Below are positions 3,560 through 49,842 of a DNA stretch of 64,000 bases, piece by piece. Below the pieces are notes generated by a model. The model searched no databases. It was not told the DNA's origin and saw nothing but the letters and a program-made list of their open reading frames with translations. Location of the stretch: the NCBI GenBank assembly GCA_951406725.2, contig OX597816.1:2108001-2172000 (forward strand). Direction: 5' to 3'. The stretch's first letter is position 1. Each line of letters starts with the position of its first letter. The position numbers were made by a program, and so were the translations under genes. This stretch comes from Octopus vulgaris. Taxonomy: Eukaryota.

Positions 3560-4191
3560 ACTATGACTTCAACTGAAAATGCATTTAATTTGCTATTGGC
3601 CAGCTCAGCATTGCAGTTCCTCTACATGGCATGTCACTTCTCATTTCCTCAAGGAAACTATAATGAAGCTATTGTTAAGCTTCAGCCTTTTCACCTTTGG
3701 AACAGTGCAGTGACATTCAATTTGAGGTCTGGTATAGCTCTCAATTCCAAAGTTTGTGCCATCCTCTCCAGTATCTTCCACACTTTATCGCTTCATACCT
3801 CCAGGGAGTAGAGTCGTAACTATCTCTCAGTCTCTCCCAGTAGCTCAGCTGTTCCATTGATACATTCTTCTTCATGTAGTATTGGTGAACTGCTTCAAGT
3901 TCTGCTATTAATCCTACACTGTAAGGTGACCACAGTTGAGAGCAGTAGTCCAGACTGCCGAGAACAAATGTCCTCCATAGGACCGGCATAGTTTCCTGGT
4001 CCCTTGTTCTGAAGGTTCTCAGAATCCATTCAGCCAGTTACCTGTACACTGCCATCTTGGTGACATGCATGTGAAATGAGGCATTGTTGCTCATATCTAT
4101 CCCAAGATCATGCAGCATTTGTGATTCTAGGATTGCCCCTCCTTTTGTTCCAAAGTATTGTTGTTGTGACTTCTGAGCGCCAGTTAGCTGG

Positions 4192-4228
<37 letters not shown>

Positions 4229-5185
4229 GGATTTGCCTGTATTAAATTGCATGTTGTTGTTCTCTGCCCATTTATATATGGCATCTTGGTCTTTTTGCAG
4301 CAGATTAGCATCAGAAGGTTCCTTGATGGTTTGTACAACTTTTGTGTCGTTGGTATAGCTAGTAAATGTGGCTGTTTGTGTAACTGATGGCATGTCTGAA
4401 ATAGCCACCGTAAACAGCAGCGGCCACAATACAGTTCCATGAGGCACTCCACTTTCTATTAATGTCTCCATGGAGAGGGCTCCGTTGGCTGCTATAGCCT
4501 GGGTTTTGTCTTTTAAGAAGTCATGCAACAACTCTCTGATTTTCCCAGTTATGCTGAGTCTCTGTAGTTTGTGACATATCATCCCATGATCAACCTTATC
4601 AAAGACCGTTGCAAAGTTGTGATATATCACATCCACACTTGAGCAATTCATTAAATTGTTTCGACACCCAGTCATAGTGTTGCAAAGTGGTGCAAGGCAG
4701 CTTCTTTCTGAGCGAAAGCCATGCTGGGTGTCAGGAAGCAAGTCATTATCTTCAAGGAATGCAATTAGATTCTTCCTGACAATGAGCTCCATGACTTTGC
4801 TGACATGGGAAGTTAGAGAGAGACAGGTCTATTATTCTTAGCGTCTGCTCTGCTGTCCCCCTTATGGATAGGGCATATTATGCCTTCCTTTAACTTTTCT
4901 GGAAAGTCTCTCTGTTGTGAGGAAGCTCTAGAAGAGAATCTGAAGTTGTCTAGCTAGAGCCCCTCTGCATTTCTTTTGGAGGATTGCTGGGAATCCACCA
5001 GGGTCTGTTGCCGAGTTTGAGCTCATCTCATCAATGGCTGATATCACATCTGTTTTCTCTGTTATTGATGCTATCAATAATTGCCATCTTGTTGCATAGA
5101 TCTGTGGAGCCTAAGAACTCATCAGGCATAGCTACTTGCAACTGTCCCAGTGGAGTGGTGAAAGCACTCCTGTATTGCACATTCA
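3560..5185 (-). mobile_element. Decayed CR1-clade LINE (RT), interrupted by (TG)n
   Basis: ORFs 4184-4792 (QHGFRS..DKVDH..SGVPHGTVL) and 3741-3989 (LDYCSQLWSP..YWERL) are homologous to ORF 48363-49505. Confidence 0.9.
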
Positions 5186-13439: not shown

Positions 13440-15262
13440 TATCAGCATTGTTTAATGTCCGTTTTCCATGCTGGCATGGGTTGGATGGTTTGAGTGGGGA
13501 CGAGCAAGCCAGAAAACTGCACCAGGCTTCAATCTCGATCTGGCAGTGTTTCTACAGCAGGAAGCCCTTCCTAACGCCAACCACTCCAAGAGTGTAGTGG
13601 GTGCTTTTTATGTGCCACTGGCACAGGAGCCAGTCAGGTGGCATTGGCATTGGCCATGTTCGGATGGTGCTTTTTACGTGCTACCAGCACAGAAACCAGT
13701 CAGGGCAGGGAGGCTGGCATCAACCATGTTCAGATGGTGCTTTTTATATGTCACTAGCACAGGGAACCAGTTAGCCCACACTGGCAACAACCCATGCATG
13801 GTGCTTATTGTATGCCACCCACATGGGAGCCAGTCAGGTGGCACTGGTATTGGTGACAACTCCAATTCCATTTGATTGTGATTTGATTCGATTTTGATTT
13901 TACTTGACTCGTCACCTGACAATTCAAAGGTACTTTTTAAATGGACTGGTTATGCGACACTGGTGTAGGCTACAGCTGGGATCTCACTTTACTTACCGGG
14001 TCTTCCCAATCACAGTATATCTCCAGAGGTCTCTATCTTTCGTCATTGCCTCTGTGAGGCCCATCATTCAAAGGTCATGCTTCACCACCTCATCCCATGT
14101 CTTCCTGGGTCTCCCTCTACCACATGTTACTTCCACTGTTAGGGAGTGACACTTCTTCACACAGCTCTCCTTATCCATTCTCAGCACATGACCATACCAG
14201 CATAGTCGTCTCTCTTGCATGCCACACCTGATGCTTCTTACAGACAATATTTCTCTCAGGGCACTTATACTCTGTAGTGTGTGCACACTGACATTACGCA
14301 TCCAGCAGATGCGTAATGTCAGTTAGCTTCAGAAGTTCACTGCCATGTAGCATGACTGTTTGCACACATGCATCATACAATCTACCTTTCACTCTGAGTG
14401 AGAGGCCTTTTGTTACCAGTAGAAGTTGGAGCTTTCTGAACTTTACTCAGGCTATTCTTATTCTAGTGGCAGCGCTCTCCAAGCATCCACCCCCACTACA
14501 GACTTGGTCACCTAGGTAGTGGAAGCTATCAACTGTATCTAGTTTCTCTCCCTGGCATGTGATGGAATCAGTTTTCTGAGCATCTGCAGTGTTTATTGCC
14601 CCTGTGCATGTGCCACACACAAAAGCTATCTTCCAGGTTAACCTTCCTTTGATATTGCTGCACCTCTTATGCATCCATAACTTACACTGGGTACATCTTA
14701 TGGTGTTTCTACCTACACCTTTTCTACAGATCAAGCAGGGCCACTGACCTGAAGAGGTTTGTGATGTGTTTGCCTTCCTACTTACTTGGACATTACTTTT
14801 TGCAACATTGACTCTAAGGCCCTTCTATTCTAAACCTTGCTTCCACACCTGAAATCTCTTCTCTAGCTCTGGTAGTGATTCTGCTATGAGAGTAAGGTCA
14901 TCAGCATAGAGGAGCTCCCAGGGGCAACCTGTCTTGAATTCCTCTGTTATTGCCTGGAGGACTATGATGAATAAAAGGGGGCTGAGGGATGATCCTTGGT
15001 GAACTCCTACCTGGAATTCTTCACTATACTCATAACCGACCCGTACCTTACTAACAGCATCCCTGTACAGCTCTTATTAACCACTCGTCTATCCCCAGGT
15101 TCTGCATCGCTCACCAGATAAGGGATCAGGAGACCCTGTCAAAGGCTTTCTCCAACTTAACAAAAGCCAAGTATAGGAGTTTATCTTTGGCTAGGTATTT
15201 CTCCCCTGCAGTTACCTTACCAGGAATATAGCATCAGTGGTGCTTCTACCTGGTACAAAACT
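13440..15262 (-). mobile_element. 5'-truncated RTE-clade LINE with complete 3' UTR
   Basis: ORFs 14447-14734 (ICRKGVGRNTIRCTQCKLW..FHYLGD) and 14068-14301 (WYGHVLRM..GRGRPRKTW); 'LLYADDL' at ~14900. Confidence 0.92.
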
Positions 15263-15428
15263 CAAGAATTAAGGTGAAAAGAAGGCTGAGAGAGGGAGAT
15301 TAGGAAGTTATATATTGAAGAGCTCTCTCAGCCTTCTTTTCACCTTAATTCTTGAGTTTTGTGCCAGGTAGAAGCACCACTATATTCCTGGTAAGGTAAC
15401 TGCAGGGGAAAAATACCTAGCCAAAGAT
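15183..15428. repeat. Inverted duplication, ~110 bp arms, 28 nt spacer
   Basis: atctttggctaggtattt...gaaggctgagagag versus ctctctcagccttc...aaatacctagccaaagat. Confidence 0.92.
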
Positions 15429-15537: not shown

Positions 15538-15650
15538 CCTCCTTCCTTTCTTTCCTGAGCGTCAAATAATACTTTAATTGTTCCACGTCCTCGCGTTGCT
15601 GTGTTTTTTTCTGTGTTTTCTTGTTTGGATTAACTATATATATATATATA

Positions 15651-15930
15651 TGAATGAATGAATGAATGAATGAATGAATGAATGAATGAATGAATGAATG
15701 AATGAATGAATGAATGAATGAATGAATGAATGAATGAATGAATGAATGAATGAATGAATGAATGAATGAATGAATGAATGAATGAATGAATGAATGAATG
15801 AATGAATGAATGAATGAATGAATGAATGAATGAATGAATGAATGACATGAATGAATGAATGAATGAATGAATGAATGAATGAATGAATGAATGAATGAAT
15901 GAATGAATGAATGAATGAATGAATGAATAT
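15651..15930. repeat. (GAAT)n microsatellite, ~280 bp
   Basis: Directly visible; source of the IHSF-repeat pseudo-ORFs. Confidence 0.98.

Positions 15931-16425: not shown

Positions 16426-16426
<1 letters not shown>
15933..16426 (-). mobile_element. RTE 3' UTR/tail, peppered with GAAT words
   Basis: 'catcatcat..ccatgctagcatgg', 'tttctacagctgatgcccttcc', 'cagcatatttccaaaggtctcggtca'. Confidence 0.75.
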
Positions 16427-16456
<30 letters not shown>

Positions 16457-16690
16457 ATGAGTTAGAGGTTATGCAACTGTCTAAGGGATAAATGTATCCG
16501 TAGGCACGACTGGTGTATTACCTAACTATGTATAGGGCTTGCTGTGAGGTTAACAGTAGTTTGTAGTTTAAAGGGTAAACCCTGGTTTAACATATTCAGA
16601 TAAAATAAGAGAAGAAATGGAGCAACCTGTAACAATTAGAATGTTGATCATTAGTATTGAATGATCATAGTTTAATTATGGTTAAGGTAA

Positions 16691-16770
16691 CATTTACAGC
16701 CGTTTCAGTTTGTTAATTTTGAGGTAAACTTGCATTGATCTTGTTCCATGCAACAAGCATCATCAGAATG
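16691..16770 (-). ncRNA. Hammerhead-ribozyme motif, left arm
   Basis: Minus strand: catt-CTGATGA-tgcttgttg...taacaaact-GAAA-cggctg-TA-aatg. Confidence 0.55.
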
Positions 16771-16901
16771 ATTTGAACTTTAGCAGAGGAATATCCATAG
16801 AAGATCAAAGGTTGACAGGAAGCTTTTCCAATTTTCTCTTTTTCTTTTTTCTCCTGTCAACCTTCGATCTCCTCTTGATATTCCTCTGGTAAAGTTCAAA
16901 T

Positions 16902-16983
16902 CATTCTGATGATGCTTTTGTTACATGGAACAAGATCAACGCAAGTTTACCTCAAAAATAACAAACTGAAACAGCTGTAAATG
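16902..16983 (+). ncRNA. Hammerhead-ribozyme motif, right arm
   Basis: catt-CTGATGA-tgct-tttgtta...taacaaa-ct-GAAA-cagctg-TA-aatg. Stem I catt/aatg, stem II tttgtta/taacaaa, palindromic acagctgt. Confidence 0.65.
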
Positions 16984-17097
16984 TATATTTAGCCATAATT
17001 AAACTATGATCATTCAATACTAATGATCAACTTCTAATTGTTACATGTTGCTCCATTTCTTCTCTTATCTTAAATATATATATATATGTATATATTG

Positions 17098-18339: not shown

Positions 18340-20180
18340 AAATAGACAATAGATAAAGCCATGAAGGACATGAAGACCAAGAAAGTCCCTGGTTCCTCAG
18401 GAATCACCAGTGAGATGCTTAAAATATCTGGTTGTGTGGGTTATGGATTAATCGCTCATATGGTTAACCAGGGTTGTACATAAGAGATTCATACCCAGTG
18501 ACTGGTGTAGCAGGATCATAGTCAACTGCTACAAAGGTAAAGGTAATGCCTTACATAGGACTAATTACAGAAGTATCAAATTGTTGGGTCAGGCGATGAA
18601 AGTTACAGAGAGGGTAATTAATTAGGAAGAGAGAAGGTCTTGATGAGATGCAGTTTGGTTTCGTGCCAGGGAGAAGCACCACTGATGCTATACTTTTGGT
18701 AAGGCAGCTGCAGGCGAAGTACCTAGCAAAAAATAAACCTGTGTACTTAGCTTTTGTTGACATGGACAAAGTCTTTGACAGGGTTCCCCACTCCCTTACC
18801 TATTGATCAATGCAGAAACTAGGGATATATGAGTCATTTGTGAGAGCTGTACAAGCCATGTACAGGGATACTGTCAATAAGGTGAGGGTTGGCAATGAGT
18901 ATAGCAATGAATCCAGGGTTCAAATAGGATTTCATCAATGATCAGTCCTTAGTCCCTCTTGTTCATCATAATCCTCCAGGCAATAACAAAGGAATTCAAG
19001 ACAGGCCGCCTCTGGGAGCTCCTCTATGCTGATGACCTTGCTCTTATAGCAGAATCACTACCTTCCAGGTATGGAAGCAAGGTCTAGAATCAAAGGGCCT
19101 TAAAGTTAACCTAGAAAAAACCCAAAATCTTACTAATTAGGGAAGAGAACAAATCACAAATCCCTTCAGGTCGATGGTCCCACCTCAATGTAGAAAAGTT
19201 AAAGGCAGAAACTCTATAAGATGTACCTGGTGCAAGCTATGGATACACAAGGGGTGCAGCAATATCAGAGGAAGGTTAACAAGGAAAATAGTCTTTGTGT
19301 GTGGAAGGTGCACAGGTACAATAACCACTAGAAATGTACAGAAAACAGGTTCCATCAAATGCCAGGGGGGATACTTAGTAGCAGTTGATAGCTTCTGTTA
19401 TTGGGGTGACCAAGTCAGCAACGGAGGTGGATGCTCTGAGAGCATAGCTGCTAGAATGAGAATTGGCTGGGCAATGTTCAGAGAGTTTCTACCTATGCTA
19501 ATAGCTAAGGACCTCTCCCTCAGAGTGAAAGGCAGATCATATAATGCCTGCATTTGAACAGCAGTGAAACATGGGCTGTGACCACTGAGGACATGTGTAG
19601 GCTTGAAAGAAATAAAGTCAGTATGCTTCACTGGATGTGCAATGTCAGTGTGCATGTACAGCTGAGTCCGAGCATCTTGAGTGCAAAGTTGGGCGTAAGA
19701 GGCATCAGATGTGGTGTGCAAGAGATGACTGCACTGGTATGACCATGTGATGTGTATGGATGAAGATAGCTGTGTGAAGAAGTGCTGATCTCTAACTGTG
19801 GAGGAAACCTGTGGAAGAGGTAGACCCAGGAAGACATGGGACTAAGTGGTGAAGCATGATCTTCGAACGTTGGGCCTCACAGAGCATGATTTCAAGTGAC
19901 TGAGACCTTAGGCAATATGCTGTGTTGGAGAATACTCAAGCCAAGTGCAATTGTAGTCATGGCTAATGCCAGTGCCATGTGACTGGCAACCATGCGAGTG
20001 GCATGGTAAGAGCGCTCATTACACTCTTGGAGTGGTTAGTGTTAGGAAGGATGTCCAGCCATAGAAACCATGCCAAATCAGACCAGAACCTGGTGCAGCT
20101 CTCCAGCTTGCCAGTTCCAGTCAAACCATCTAACCCATGCCAGCATGGAAAGCTGACGTTAAATGATGATGATGATGATG
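18340..20180 (+). mobile_element. 5'-truncated RTE-clade LINE
   Basis: 'ctcctctatgctgatgacctt' (LLYADDL), ORF 19174-19557 with the Cys-rich finger, (GAT)n tail at ~20165-20180. Confidence 0.92.
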
Positions 20181-29609: not shown

Positions 29610-32092
29610 TGGGTTAGCAACCATTATATCAGCCTATGCCCCTCAGCCAGGGCTACCCGATGGTCAGAAAGACCGATTCTATGACACCCTCTTGCAGACT
29701 ACCTTGTCGACGAATGACAGGGACCTTCTCTTTGTGACTGGTGACTTCAATGGACATGTTGGACAACATACAGGGGGCTTCCAAGGCGTACATGGATTCT
29801 ACAGTTATGGTTCCCGTAACTAGGAGGGAACCAGGCTGCTGAAGTTCTGCGATGCAAATGATCTTATGGTTTGCAATACTAACTTCAGGAAACCTGCCAG
29901 TCACCTAGTCACCTACCGTTCTGGCAGACACACTAGTCAAATTGACTACATCCTCGCCAGAAAAAGGGAAAGATGGCTGCTTATAAATGCCAAAACCTTC
30001 CCAGGCGAAGAATGTACCCCACAACATAAACTGGTAGCTAGTGACTTCAGGATCAGGGATAAGTGGAAGCCCAGAAGACAACCAGCATGGAGGAGAAGGG
30101 TCTGGAAGCTTAAAGAGCCTGTGAATGGACAGAGATTTAGAGATATATTACTTGAAGCCTTTGACGAAATAGCCCAACTAATTAGAGAGAGAGTTAATTT
30201 AGATGAGATACAGTTTGGGTTCGTGCCAGGGAAAAGTACCACTGATGCTATATTCCTGGTAAGGCAGCTGTAGGAGAAATACCTAGCCAAAGATAAGCCC
30301 CTGTACCTGGCTTTTGTTGACATGGAGAAAGCCTTCAACAGGGTCCCCCTTATCTGGTGGTCAATGAGGAAACTAGGGATAGATGAATGGTTAGTGAGAG
30401 CTGTGCATGCTATGTACAAGGATGCTGTAAGTAAGGTGAGGGTTGGCAACTAGTACACTGAAGAATTCAGGGTAGAAGTAGGGGTCCACCAAGGTTCAGT
30501 CCTCAGTCCCCTCCTATTTATCATAGTCCTCCAGGCAATAACGGAGGAATTCAAGACAGGATGCCCCTGGGAGCTCCTCTATGCTGATGACTTTGCTCTA
30601 ATTTGTGAGTCACTATCAGAACTAGAGGAGAAGTTTCAAGTGTGGAAACAAGGATTAGATTCGAAGGGCCTTAGAGTCAACCTAGCTAAAACCAGAGTCC
30701 TAATAAGTAGGAATGCAGGCAAACCACAAATCCCTTCAGGTAGATGGCCCTGCTCGATTTGTAGTAGAGGTGTAGGTAGAAACTCTATAAGATGTACCCA
30801 GTTTAAGCTATGGACACAAAAGAGGTGCAGTAATATCAAAGGAAGGCTAACTGGGAAGATAGTTTTTGTATGTGGCAGATACTCAGGAGCAATAAACACT
30901 GAAAATGCGCAGAGAACAACTTCTGCCACATTCCAGGGAGGAAAACTAGGAGTAGTTGATAGCTTCTGTTACCTAGGTGACCAAGTCAGTAGTGGGGGAG
31001 GGTGCGCTGAAAGTGTAGCTGCTAGAATAAGAATAGCCTGGGCAAAGTTCAGAGAGCTCTTACCTCTGCTGGTGACAAAGGGCCTCTCACTCAGAGTAAA
31101 AGGTAGACTGTATGACACGTGTACGACAGCCATGCTACATGGCAGTGAAACATGGGCTGTGACTGCTGAGGACATGCGTAAGCTTGCAAGGAATGAAGCC
31201 AGTATGATCCGATGGATGTGTAATGTCAGTGTTCATACTCAACAGAGTGTAAGTACCTTGAGAGAAAAGTTGGACCTAAGAAGCATCAGATGTGGTGTGC
31301 AAGAGAGACAACTGTGCTGGTATGGTCATGTGGTGAGAATGGATGTGGATAGCTGTGTGTAAAAGTGCCACACCCTAGTGGTTGAGGGAACTTGTGGAAG
31401 AGGTAGACCCAGGAAGACCTGGGATGAGGTGGTGAAGCATGACCTTTGAACATTGGGCCTTACCGAGGCAATGGCTAGTGACCGGGACCTTTGGAAATAT
31501 GCTGTGCTTATGAGAAGACTCGGCAAGCTCAATTGAGACCATAACCTTGTGGCCTATGCCAGGGGTGTTACCAGCCTACTTATGTGTACCTGTCCTTCAT
31601 TGGACACTAAACTCTGCTTGCGAAGACCTGTTGAGTCAAGTGAAACCGAAATCAAATTTGATCACTGGCATCCGTGCTAGTGGAGCGCTAAGAGTACCAT
31701 ATGAGTGTGATTGTTGCCAGAACAACTAGCTGGCCCCCGTGCTGGTGGCACATAAAAAACACCATTCAAGCATGATCGTTACCTGCGTCACCTTACTGGC
31801 ACTTGTGCTGGTGGCACGCGAAAAAGCATTTGAGCAAGTGCCGCTGGACTGGCTCCTGTGCAAGTGGCACATAAAAGGCACCATTTGAGTGTGGCTGTTG
31901 CCAGTACTGTTTGACTAGCCCTCATACCAGTGGTACGTAAAAGCACCCTCTACACTCTCGGAGTGGTTGGCATTAGGAAGGGTATCCAGCTGTAGAAACT
32001 CCGCCAGATCAGATTGGAGTCTGGTTCACCAGACCTCAGTCAAATTGTCCAACCCATGCTGGCATGGAAAACGGACATTAAACGATGATGAT
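29610..32092 (+). mobile_element. Longest RTE-clade LINE copy (AP endonuclease + RT, internal deletion near 30165)
   Basis: GDFNGHVG and SQIDYIL (endonuclease); QFGFVPGKSTTDAIF, GVHQGSVLSPLLF, LLYADD, FCYLG (RT); (GAT)n tail. Confidence 0.95.
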
Positions 32093-47338: not shown

Positions 47339-48344
47339 CTCAGTGGTGAAGGGTGACTAGGAAACTAGGGCATGCAGTCCACCCACCCCCATTGAGGTTG
47401 GGTAGGGTTCCATGTGTCCCACTCTCCCCTGTTTTCTGTGAAAAGCATAGTGTTATACATGCTTTGAAAATGTAGGGTGTCTGAAAATGAAAATAGTTTT
47501 CCCCCCTATGATGCACTGTTTTGAAGTAGTTAGTAAGACACAAGAAATGTACATATAACTTTGGAAATCACCTTCCAACAATTTCATCCAACAATTTCAT
47601 CATATTGTCAAATTTAAGAAATAATTTGAAATTCTTTTTAACATTTGGAAGAAAATTCGACATTCACGAACTCTTGAAGCTGATTGAGTGTACCAAATTA
47701 AGTGAATGTGTATAAGAATGTACAACTTCTGTCAGTGATCCAGCTTTTCTGTCTTTACTGATGTCGACTTATCCCCTAAACATTTCTTGAAGCCTTTCCT
47801 TCTCATCAACAAATCACAAAATGTGAAACAGTTAAGATTTCATTTGAAGGTCTGTAGTCTCACCAAGCATAACAGCAACAAATGCTGGGTTTTTCCCAAT
47901 CATTGGCTTAATTGCACCTTTGCTTGTAACAACTATACAATGAAATAATTTTGTTTTGAATATCACTTAAAAACTGAGAGAATGTATTCTTGTACTGACA
48001 AACTTACGGACATGGGAAACAGAAAAACTTGTCCAGAATGGGTCCTCTCGTCATTCACTCAGACTATTCATAATATTTTCAATCAAAATAACGATGACAT
48101 TTCTTGCTGCCCAATTCAGTTTTGATTTTCACCTTAAGATTTGGTGTCTCTTTTCCAAGAATGATAATATTCATATGTTTCAAAGTTGGGGAAAGTAGAG
48201 AGAAAACTGAACTAATTGACCCTTTTGCCATCCTGGGGGTGATTGAAGGCATGAGAAATTCTACTGGGTTATAATTTTTTAAAATGATTTGAAGGTTTAA
48301 GCTAATAGATAATTTAGGCGCTAGTTTACTTTTTTTTTTTTTTA

Positions 48345-49842
48345 CATAAAGGAGGTAGCAGAGTGGAGGCCAAGAACTTCAGACCTATCTCTCTCACCTC
48401 ACACATCAGCAAGGTCATGGAACGAATAGTCAGAAGGAAACTGATCACCTTCCTTGAAGAAAATGACTTGCTGCCTGACACCCAACATGGTTTCCGACCA
48501 GGAAGAAGCTGCTTAACTCAGCTCCTACAACACTATGACTGGGTGCTGAAACGACTGCTCAACCACTCAAATGTGGAAGTGATATATCTCGACTTTGCAA
48601 AGGCCTTTGATAAAGTCGATCATGGAATGATATGTCACAAACTGCGTGATCTTAGCATAGTTGGAAAACTGGGAGAATGGCTTCATGACTTTCTGAAAGA
48701 TAGAAGTCAGGTGGTAGTAGCCAATGGGGCCACTTCCATTAACACACAAATAGTGAGCGGTGTTCCGCAGGGCACTGTTTTGGGACCACTACCGTTCATA
48801 ATGGCCCTCTCAGACATGCTCTCAGCCACGCAGAGAGCCACGATCACAAGTTATGCAGATGATACAAAAGTTTTACAGGCAATACAGAACCCTGAGGACA
48901 CTAAACGCCTGCAATGTGAGCTGGACAAAATATACAAGTGGGCTGAAAAGAATAGCATGCAGTTCAATGCTGAAAAGTTTCAAGCTTTATGCTATCAGCA
49001 TGCAAAACTGAATGCAATACCCAATGAATACACTGGACCCGGAGGAATTGCAATCCCAGAGGCACTATCAGTGCGTGACCTGGGTATTTACATGAGTGAT
49101 GACGCAACCTTTCGTGTACATGTTGCTAAATTGGCAATGAAATGTAGACGATTGGCCGGATGGATTCTCAGAACCTTTAGAACAAGAGAACAAGAAACCA
49201 TGATGGTCCTCTGGAGGACACTTGTCCTAAGCCACTTTGACTATTGCTCTCAGCTATGGTCACCATCCAGTGTCAAGTTGATCACAGAACTTGAGGCGAT
49301 CCAACGTAGCTACACGAAGAAGATAGCCTCTGTGCAGAATATAAGCTACTGGGAAAGACTCAAGAGATTAAAACTCTATTCCTTGGAGCGTAGGCGAGAA
49401 AGATATGCCATAATATACATCTGGAAGATTCTGGAAGGACTTGTCCCAAACTTTGGCATCGAGAGTTACACAAATGCCAGAACTGGGCGCCACTGTGGTG
49501 CCTAGGACTCCAAATTTTCCATCAAGATGTAGGACAAGATACTGTGATAGCCTGGGCTTCCGAGGCCCACAGCTCTTCAATATCCTCTCGAAGAACCTAA
49601 GAGACCTGCATGGGGTGGATGTAGATGTCTTTAAAATGAAACTGGATCTCTTCCTGTCAGGTGTCCCAGATGAACCAACTTCACGGCAGGAGGTGCAGAT
49701 GAGGGCAGCTGCATCGAACTCTCTCATGCACCAAATAGCAGTTGCTAAAAAGCATTCGTGAAGTAAAACCATGTAGCAACACCAAATGGCGGTGCCCCAG
49801 CATGGCCACAGCTCGTGAGCTGAAACTAGAATCAATCAATCA
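48345..49842 (+). mobile_element. 5'-truncated, relatively young CR1-clade LINE (RT ORF 48363-49505 plus 3' UTR)
   Basis: RPISLTS, QHGFRPGRSC, YLDFAKAFDKV, SGVPQGTVLGP, YADDTK, VRDLG; one frameshift near 49495; ends in (AATC)n. Confidence 0.95.

What the first reader, a model, noticed from the sequence alone, without database searches (positions are those of the whole stretch)
16452..17075. (TA)n-embedded inverted repeat with one long-loop-II hammerhead on each strand
Seen: 215 bp arms; both contain catt-CUGAUGA...GAAAC(A/G)GCUGUA-aatg with ~55 nt between the boxes, closed by (t)ttgtta/taacaa(a). About 150 bp of extra sequence lies between the left arm and the (TA)n, and there is no ORF. Established: Penelope-like elements leave inverted or partially tandem pseudo-LTRs containing hammerheads. 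Inference: this is a non-autonomous ribozyme-bearing retroelement (retrozyme-like). A transcript from either strand would carry one sense ribozyme competing with a long dsRNA hairpin, a possible folding switch inside a host intron.
Basis: partly seen in the sequence, partly recalled or inferred. Interest (0 to 1): 0.72.

Follow-up and report, generated by a model that had tools for sequence, protein, structure and literature searches.

The report
Truncated Penelope retrotransposon with twin hammerheads
This mirror-image repeat is a shortened, decaying copy of the tail end of a Penelope-type jumping gene, pasted back-to-back into a TA microsatellite, and its two hammerhead motifs are predicted to be locked inside a long hairpin rather than acting as a switch, so the locus is an ordinary example of a known kind.

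Summary
The arms (16601-16820, 16851-17072; 205 of 218 aligned bases identical) are two 5'-truncated copies of the 3' end of an autonomous Penelope-like element. In longer copies the same sequence follows an RT + GIY-YIG-type ORF bearing Hydra-clade motifs (RWK, DKT, CxCX5C). The 'extra 150 bp' is the element's 3' tail: copies end at two sites about 140 nt apart, and 10 of 17 head-to-head loci have one end of each kind, none two long ends. The junction is unique to this locus and no tandem monomers were seen, so it is not a retrozyme. Hammerhead cores decay about as fast as their flanks (5.2% vs 6.9%, p=0.24). Any read-through transcript makes the antisense arm first and the hairpin wins by ~100 kcal/mol: no switch. 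The 'long loop II' is an extended helix II; 2,804 genomic motifs share such a spacer and the ACAGCUGU dimer palindrome. Back-to-back copies with a hammerhead on each strand are published. Earlier scan notes report the same two-ended footprint on other DNA, including this genome.

The parts
16426..16453 (.). (AT)14 target microsatellite, left side
16454..16822 (-). Long arm: 5'-truncated copy of the element's 3' end, running to the distal (long) 3' end
   Evidence: aligns to natural longer copy L031 over 364 nt at 85%
16454..16600 (-). Tail: about 145 nt between the short and long 3' ends, present on one arm only
   Evidence: two clusters of 3' ends, 29 short and 30 long of 64
16691..16770 (-). 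Type I hammerhead motif, 53-nt helix II region; helix III palindrome has an A>G change that still pairs by G.U in a dimer; predicted cleavage after 16695
16819..16826 (.). Head-to-head junction of the two 5' ends, around a short AAGCTT palindrome; unique to this locus
16824..17074 (+). Short arm: inverted 5'-truncated copy ending at the proximal (short) 3' end
16902..16983 (+). Type I hammerhead motif, 55-nt helix II region with a 2-nt insertion relative to the family, ACAGCTGT helix III palindrome; predicted cleavage after 16979
17075..17095 (.). TA-rich target microsatellite, right side

Best explanation
The element is two 5'-truncated copies of the 3' end of an RT/GIY-YIG Penelope-like retrotransposon, likely of the Hydra clade, joined head-to-head in a (TA)n, likely made in one insertion event and now apparently decaying without selection. 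Shown: homology to ORF-bearing copies, two fixed 3' ends, (TA)n flanks, unique junction, near-neutral decay of cores. Inferred mechanism: the element's protein cut both strands of the (TA)n and primed reverse transcription from both DNA ends, once at a distal and once at a proximal start site about 140 nt apart on the RNA (as shown in vitro, with a shorter spacing, for the anole element PAc); both cDNAs stopped early and were joined at a short palindrome. The hammerhead belongs to the parent's terminal repeat and is predicted to need a second copy (dimer through ACAGCUGU) and perhaps the protein; at this locus read-through RNA is predicted to form a 220-bp hairpin that blocks it.
For: 46 matches from 40 scored of 466 candidates. 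L038 carries RT, EN, 3' UTR, the hammerhead and the same 3' end at (TA)n on one strand. 10 of 49 loci reach back into the EN-coding region within 1.5 kb. Family ORF pieces show RWK and DKT (L056), CxCX5C, CxxC and CxH (L031), the Hydra features of PMC8557442 section 11. A sister family copy (L053) has pLTR-962-aa ORF-pLTR ending at (TA)n plus an inverted truncated copy; its protein's Atlas neighbours score 0.96-0.98 and include GIY-YIG and RVT_1 clusters. 17 of 49 loci head-to-head; 10 long+short, 0 long+long, 1 short+short, 6 not classifiable (10 of 11, p=0.006 post hoc). Core 20/384 changes vs 245/3534 in flanks, p=0.24; 19 of 35 arms keep all 11 core bases vs 15.9 expected. Hairpin advantage 99-119 kcal/mol.
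Against: No full-length intact copy of this exact family was found; the link to the ORF rests on broken copies. Pfam gave no significant hit on the six family ORF pieces or on the 960-aa sister ORF. No tree was built, so the clade rests on motifs; the L053 unit (6.1 kb) is longer than the 'generally <3 kb' Hydra elements. The tail (about 140 nt) is longer than the published 30-40 bp. Cores are slightly better kept than flanks (not significant). Two-ended priming is inferred; Arkhipova et al. (PMC3846280) favour self-priming for head-to-head junctions.
Confidence: 0.88

Rival explanations
1. A non-autonomous retrozyme-like element that replicates as a unit through hammerhead-cleaved linear or circular RNA.
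For: No ORF in the window copy; Penelope pLTRs and animal retrozymes are reported to be related (bioRxiv 10.64898/2026.07.22.740005).
Against: Junction spanned only by the window itself (1 of 73 matches, 40 of 42 candidates scored); 0 of 49 loci with head-to-tail monomers and 5' ends scattered; opposite-strand hammerheads cannot cut out a monomer from one transcript.
Confidence: 0.04
2. A co-opted folding switch in a host intron, in which ribozyme folding competes with the hairpin.
For: Both window arms keep the catalytic bases; a read-through transcript does hold one sense motif.
Against: Antisense arm is transcribed first on either strand; stem I probability 0.000 in the full and co-transcriptional contexts and 99-119 kcal/mol penalty; even alone the motif is 4.8-6.3 kcal/mol above the best fold. 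Both window copies have changes that disturb the family's helix II. No selection on cores. No host exon found.
Confidence: 0.03
3. Same origin, but the inverted arm arose by fold-back or template switch of a single cDNA (self-priming), not by priming from both target ends.
For: Short palindrome at the junction; self-priming was proposed for head-to-head Penelope junctions (PMC3846280).
Against: Both outer ends lie at fixed element sites next to microsatellites and pair long with short, which a simple fold-back does not explain; PAc extends both strands in vitro (PMC11167929). This rival concerns only the mechanism step.
Confidence: 0.25

Closest known systems
Hydra clade of C-terminal EN+ Penelope-like elements (Craig et al. 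2021, PMC8557442; includes Hydra-1_Obim and Penelope-13_HM)
   Same: RT then GIY-YIG-type EN; RWK, DKT, CxCX5C, CxxC, CxH; (TA)n targets; 3' type I hammerhead, U.U at the base of helix II as in 14 of 26 Hydra rows of File S2; Penelope-13_HM is listed with an inverted truncated copy and a hammerhead on each strand.
   Different: 53-55 nt between the boxes (85 in the sister family) against loops of 3-10 nt in the 26 Hydra rows; helix III a perfect 8-nt palindrome with no loop; tail about 140 nt against 30-40 bp; longer, Asn-rich ORF. Hydra-1_Obim has a different hammerhead, so it is another family.
Minimal/dimeric hammerheads of metazoan PLEs (Cervera and de la Pena 2014, PMC4209133)
   Same: Helix I 4 bp, helix II 8 bp, extra base before the G-C pair, palindromic helix III; that paper reports pairs 100-700 bp apart on opposite strands from truncated PLEs, and no cleavage as monomers.
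   Different: Helix II is extended by an internal loop and a GCAA-capped hairpin.
PAc (Poseidon of Anolis carolinensis; Frangieh et al. 2024, PMC11167929)
   Same: Two RT start sites defining a tail, both target strands cut and extended, AT-rich targets, hammerhead dispensable and protein-assisted: the model this locus most likely works like.
   Different: Different clade; its hammerhead overlaps the ORF start and its two start sites are close together.
Animal non-LTR retrozymes (PMC7229834)
   Same: Non-coding, type I hammerhead, a few hundred bases.
   Different: Retrozymes are head-to-tail tandem monomers; this is a head-to-head pair cut from an ORF-bearing element.

Membership tests
Penelope-like elements (C-terminal EN+) | Single ORF with RT followed by GIY-YIG endonuclease | tested here: met
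   Broken family copies L038, L056, L060, L031 align to the 960-aa sister ORF over RT and EN; Atlas neighbours carry RVT_1/GIY-YIG. Pfam itself gave no hit.
Penelope-like elements (C-terminal EN+) | pLTRs with partial tandem and inverted 5'-truncated copies | tested here: met
   17 of 49 loci head-to-head; sister copy L053 shows pLTR-ORF-pLTR plus inverted copy.
Penelope-like elements (C-terminal EN+) | [quoted passage not shown] | tested here: met
   Two 3' end clusters, 10 long+short pairs and no long+long; length about 140 nt instead of 30-40.
Penelope-like elements (C-terminal EN+) | Hammerhead motif in the terminal repeat | tested here: met
   (51 exact-pattern matches, control 0).
Hydra clade | RWK and DKT motifs in RT | tested here: met
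   RWK and DKT in L056, DKT in L038; RWR and DKT in sister L052.
Hydra clade | CxCX5C linker; CxxC and CxH near the EN C-terminus; no CCHH | tested here: met
   L031 and L052; absence of CCHH judged by eye from the same sequences.
Hydra clade | Insertion into (TA)n | tested here: met
   TA run beside 24 of 30 long and 14 of 29 short ends; any microsatellite 27 of 30 and 22 of 29.
Hydra clade | Placement in the Hydra RT clade on a tree | not tested
   Reference proteins were seen only as cut passages in the supplement; motif-by-motif likeness to Hydra-1_Obim noted by eye.
Type I hammerhead ribozyme | Conserved core with helices I-III | tested here: met
   Core intact in both arms; 88% of cells paired in 30 copies, covariation weak; helix III only stable as a dimer (-11.1 kcal/mol duplex).
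Type I hammerhead ribozyme | Self-cleavage | not testable with these tools
   Needs in vitro assay.
Animal non-LTR retrozyme | Head-to-tail tandem monomers, each with a hammerhead | tested here: not met
   0 of 49 loci.
Animal non-LTR retrozyme | Non-coding family propagating as a unit | tested here: not met
   Family has an ORF; junction unique.
Animal non-LTR retrozyme | Abundant linear/circular RNA | not testable with these tools
   No run on record as RNA was listed.

The most novel reading that the evidence does not exclude
This genome's Penelope-type elements have evolved a hammerhead variant with a long, structured helix II (40-85 nt) on an invariant ACAGCUGU helix III shared by thousands of motifs of unrelated sequence; these could cleave as cross-family heterodimers, with the extended helix II as a binding or folding platform for the element's protein, and the 140-nt tail records two widely spaced, ordered reverse-transcription starts on one RNA.
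Probability: 0.25. Interest if true: 0.55.

Novelty: new member of a known kind. Interest (0 to 1): 0.27.

Why it matters
The locus itself is one of hundreds of decayed fragments and matters little. The family is a usable test case for two open points in Penelope biology: how head-to-head insertions form (a 140-nt tail makes the long/short pairing easy to score) and what the hammerhead does (an extended helix II and a genome-wide shared dimer palindrome give clear constructs to assay).

Tried and rejected
Rfam at E<=10 gave 9 chance-level hits, no hammerhead. Pfam missed the family ORFs. Expression: no RNA holder listed. Contigs of guessed-RNA and unlabelled runs were dominated by SINE-like repeats; at the element one 167-nt contig of depth about 4 covered 16472-16637 with one A>G, which is no evidence on expression or editing; none bridged the junction. 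Covariation inside the family is weak: percent paired beats 500 of 500 shuffles, but pairs with change on both sides do not (376 of 500 shuffles as high), and I drew the structure from these sequences. A possible distal helix I was seen in one constrained fold only and not pursued. Unconstrained cofolding of two copies formed the palindrome duplex but not helix I or the family's helix II. The PHD hits at 14450-14824 and 19141-19554 were considered as host exons and rejected: they lie in an inverted pair of LINE-like RT fragments (LINE identity from recall). Literature searches listed no paper on a cephalopod long-helix-II hammerhead or a 140-nt tail; subscription papers, including Lunse et al. 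2017 (recalled, not seen), are outside the library.

Full report
Observation. The inverted repeat is real: arms 16601-16820 and 16851-17072 share 205 of 218 aligned bases. Each has a type I hammerhead core, at 16906 (plus, 55 nt between boxes, cleavage predicted after 16979) and 16766 (minus, 53 nt); these were the only two hits of my scan over both strands of the window. TA runs flank both ends, 16454-16600 is unpaired, and no ATG ORF of 30 aa lies within. Rfam does not recognise the motif.

A repeat family. The window lies in a 2.8-Gb animal assembly (the SINE-like neighbours look octopod to me, from recall, untested). The right arm found 466 candidates, 40 scored, 46 matches at 84-100%; an exact motif pattern found 51 against 0 for the reversed control. 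I analysed 49 distinct loci: 27 of the 30 (3 duplicates dropped) and 22 of the 30 (8 duplicates dropped).

It is the 3' end of an autonomous Penelope-like element. In L038 a broken RT, a GIY-YIG-type EN, a 3' UTR with a SINE inserted, the hammerhead and the same 3' end at (TA)n follow each other on one strand. 10 of 49 loci reach the EN-coding region within the 1.5-kb flanks; 5' ends scatter from -27 to -1556. Searching with the RT piece gave 7,355 candidates, 150 scored, among them a younger sister family with open frames of 960-962 aa. L053 shows a 508-bp pLTR, ORF, pLTR ending at (TA)n and an inverted 5'-truncated copy, with the hammerhead in each repeat. Pfam missed these proteins; Atlas neighbours scored 0.96-0.98 and include GIY-YIG and RVT_1 clusters, several on under half of members. 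RWK, DKT, CxCX5C, CxxC and CxH are present, the features given for the Hydra clade (PMC8557442: passages, outline, section 11 and parts of the supplement read). No tree was built.

The extra 150 bp is the tail. Of 64 3' ends, 29 fall at about +160 to +170 and 30 at about +300 to +315 from the core, 5 elsewhere; TA runs follow 14 of 29 and 24 of 30. 17 of 49 loci are head-to-head: 10 long+short, 1 short+short, 0 long+long, 6 with an end not classifiable (10 of 11, p=0.006, post hoc). The window is long+short. A tail on one end and an inverted truncated copy are described for PLEs (PMC8557442; PMC3846280, passages) but at 30-40 bp. For PAc, the tail lies between two RT start sites and both target strands are cut and extended (PMC11167929, parts 1-2 of 4 read). 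I infer the same here with sites about 140 nt apart; self-priming remains a rival for this step.

Not a retrozyme. Only the window itself spans its junction (1 of 73 matches; 40 of 42 candidates scored), and 0 of 49 loci have head-to-tail monomers, the hallmark of animal retrozymes (PMC7229834, passages; bioRxiv 10.64898/2026.07.22.740005, part 1 of 5).

The hammerhead. It matches PLE dimer-type motifs (PMC4209133, parts 1-2 of 4): 4-bp helix I, 8-bp helix II, palindromic helix III; that paper already notes opposite-strand pairs 100-700 bp apart from truncated PLEs and no monomer activity. The U.U at the foot of helix II occurs in 14 of 26 Hydra rows, and Penelope-13_HM has a motif on each strand. 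The palindrome duplex is -11.1 kcal/mol (-9.7 for the left arm's variant) against +2.4 for the monomer hairpin; other 8-nt palindromes occur in motifs at L057, L058 and L061. The 53-nt 'loop' folds in five family copies (L031, L035, L036, L038, L039) as stem, internal loop and hairpin, but not in L042/L058 or in either window arm. In 30 copies 88% of cells pair and one hairpin pair changes U-A to C-G in 6, yet covariation is weak against shuffles. Genome-wide, the two boxes with ACAGCTGT occur 2,804 times with 40-68-nt spacers (control 1) and 2,419 times with 10-39 (control 2); I saw only the first 100 rows of each and did not test their helix I or their link to PLEs.

No selection, no switch. 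In 35 arms chosen by overall similarity, core positions differ from the majority at 20 of 384 cells and flanks at 245 of 3,534 (p=0.24); 19 of 35 keep all 11 core bases against 15.9 expected. Because the 5' ends meet in the middle, a read-through transcript of either strand makes the antisense arm first. A hammerhead-compatible fold costs 108-119 kcal/mol in the full RNA, 99-112 at the moment the motif is finished, and 4.8-6.3 even alone. If transcribed, the locus would give double-stranded RNA, not a switch. A host gene was not found, though short exons were not searched.

Verdict. A decayed, one-off head-to-head insertion of an apparently undescribed, likely Hydra-clade Penelope family: new member of a known kind. 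The longer tail and extended helix II are modest variants that my six literature searches did not list. Earlier scan notes describe the same two-ended footprint for other repeats, two of them in this genome; I had reached the reading before seeing them and did not check them.

Noticed in passing
G000 genome-wide: At least 5,223 hammerhead-box motifs share the ACAGCTGT helix III palindrome (2,804 with 40-68-nt and 2,419 with 10-39-nt spacers; controls 1 and 2), across many unrelated helix II sequences, several in close opposite-strand pairs.
   Followed up: partly
L053:1-9175 and L052: Young sister Penelope family with 960-962-aa open frames, Asn-rich inserts, 508-bp pLTRs, a 3-kb inverted copy at 98.7% and a hammerhead with an 85-nt, strongly paired helix II (-38 to -41 kcal/mol) but a weak helix I.
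   Followed up: partly
window 14000-15261 and 18658-19935: About 1.3-kb inverted pair (74% identical) of LINE-like RT fragments with a PHD-like insert, enclosing the element.
   Followed up: partly
window 15183-15428: Near-perfect palindrome (arms 98% complementary, 28-nt loop) at the end of the left LINE-like fragment, suggesting a recent fold-back duplication.
   Followed up: no
L057:2200-2420: Another short inverted repeat in TA runs carrying a hammerhead with a 59-nt helix II and an ACAATTGT palindrome.
   Followed up: no
window 15650-15928: (ATGA) array of about 70 copies.
   Followed up: no
window 4187-4828, 30454-31359, 48318-49502: Three RVT_1 fragments of non-LTR retrotransposons.
   Followed up: no
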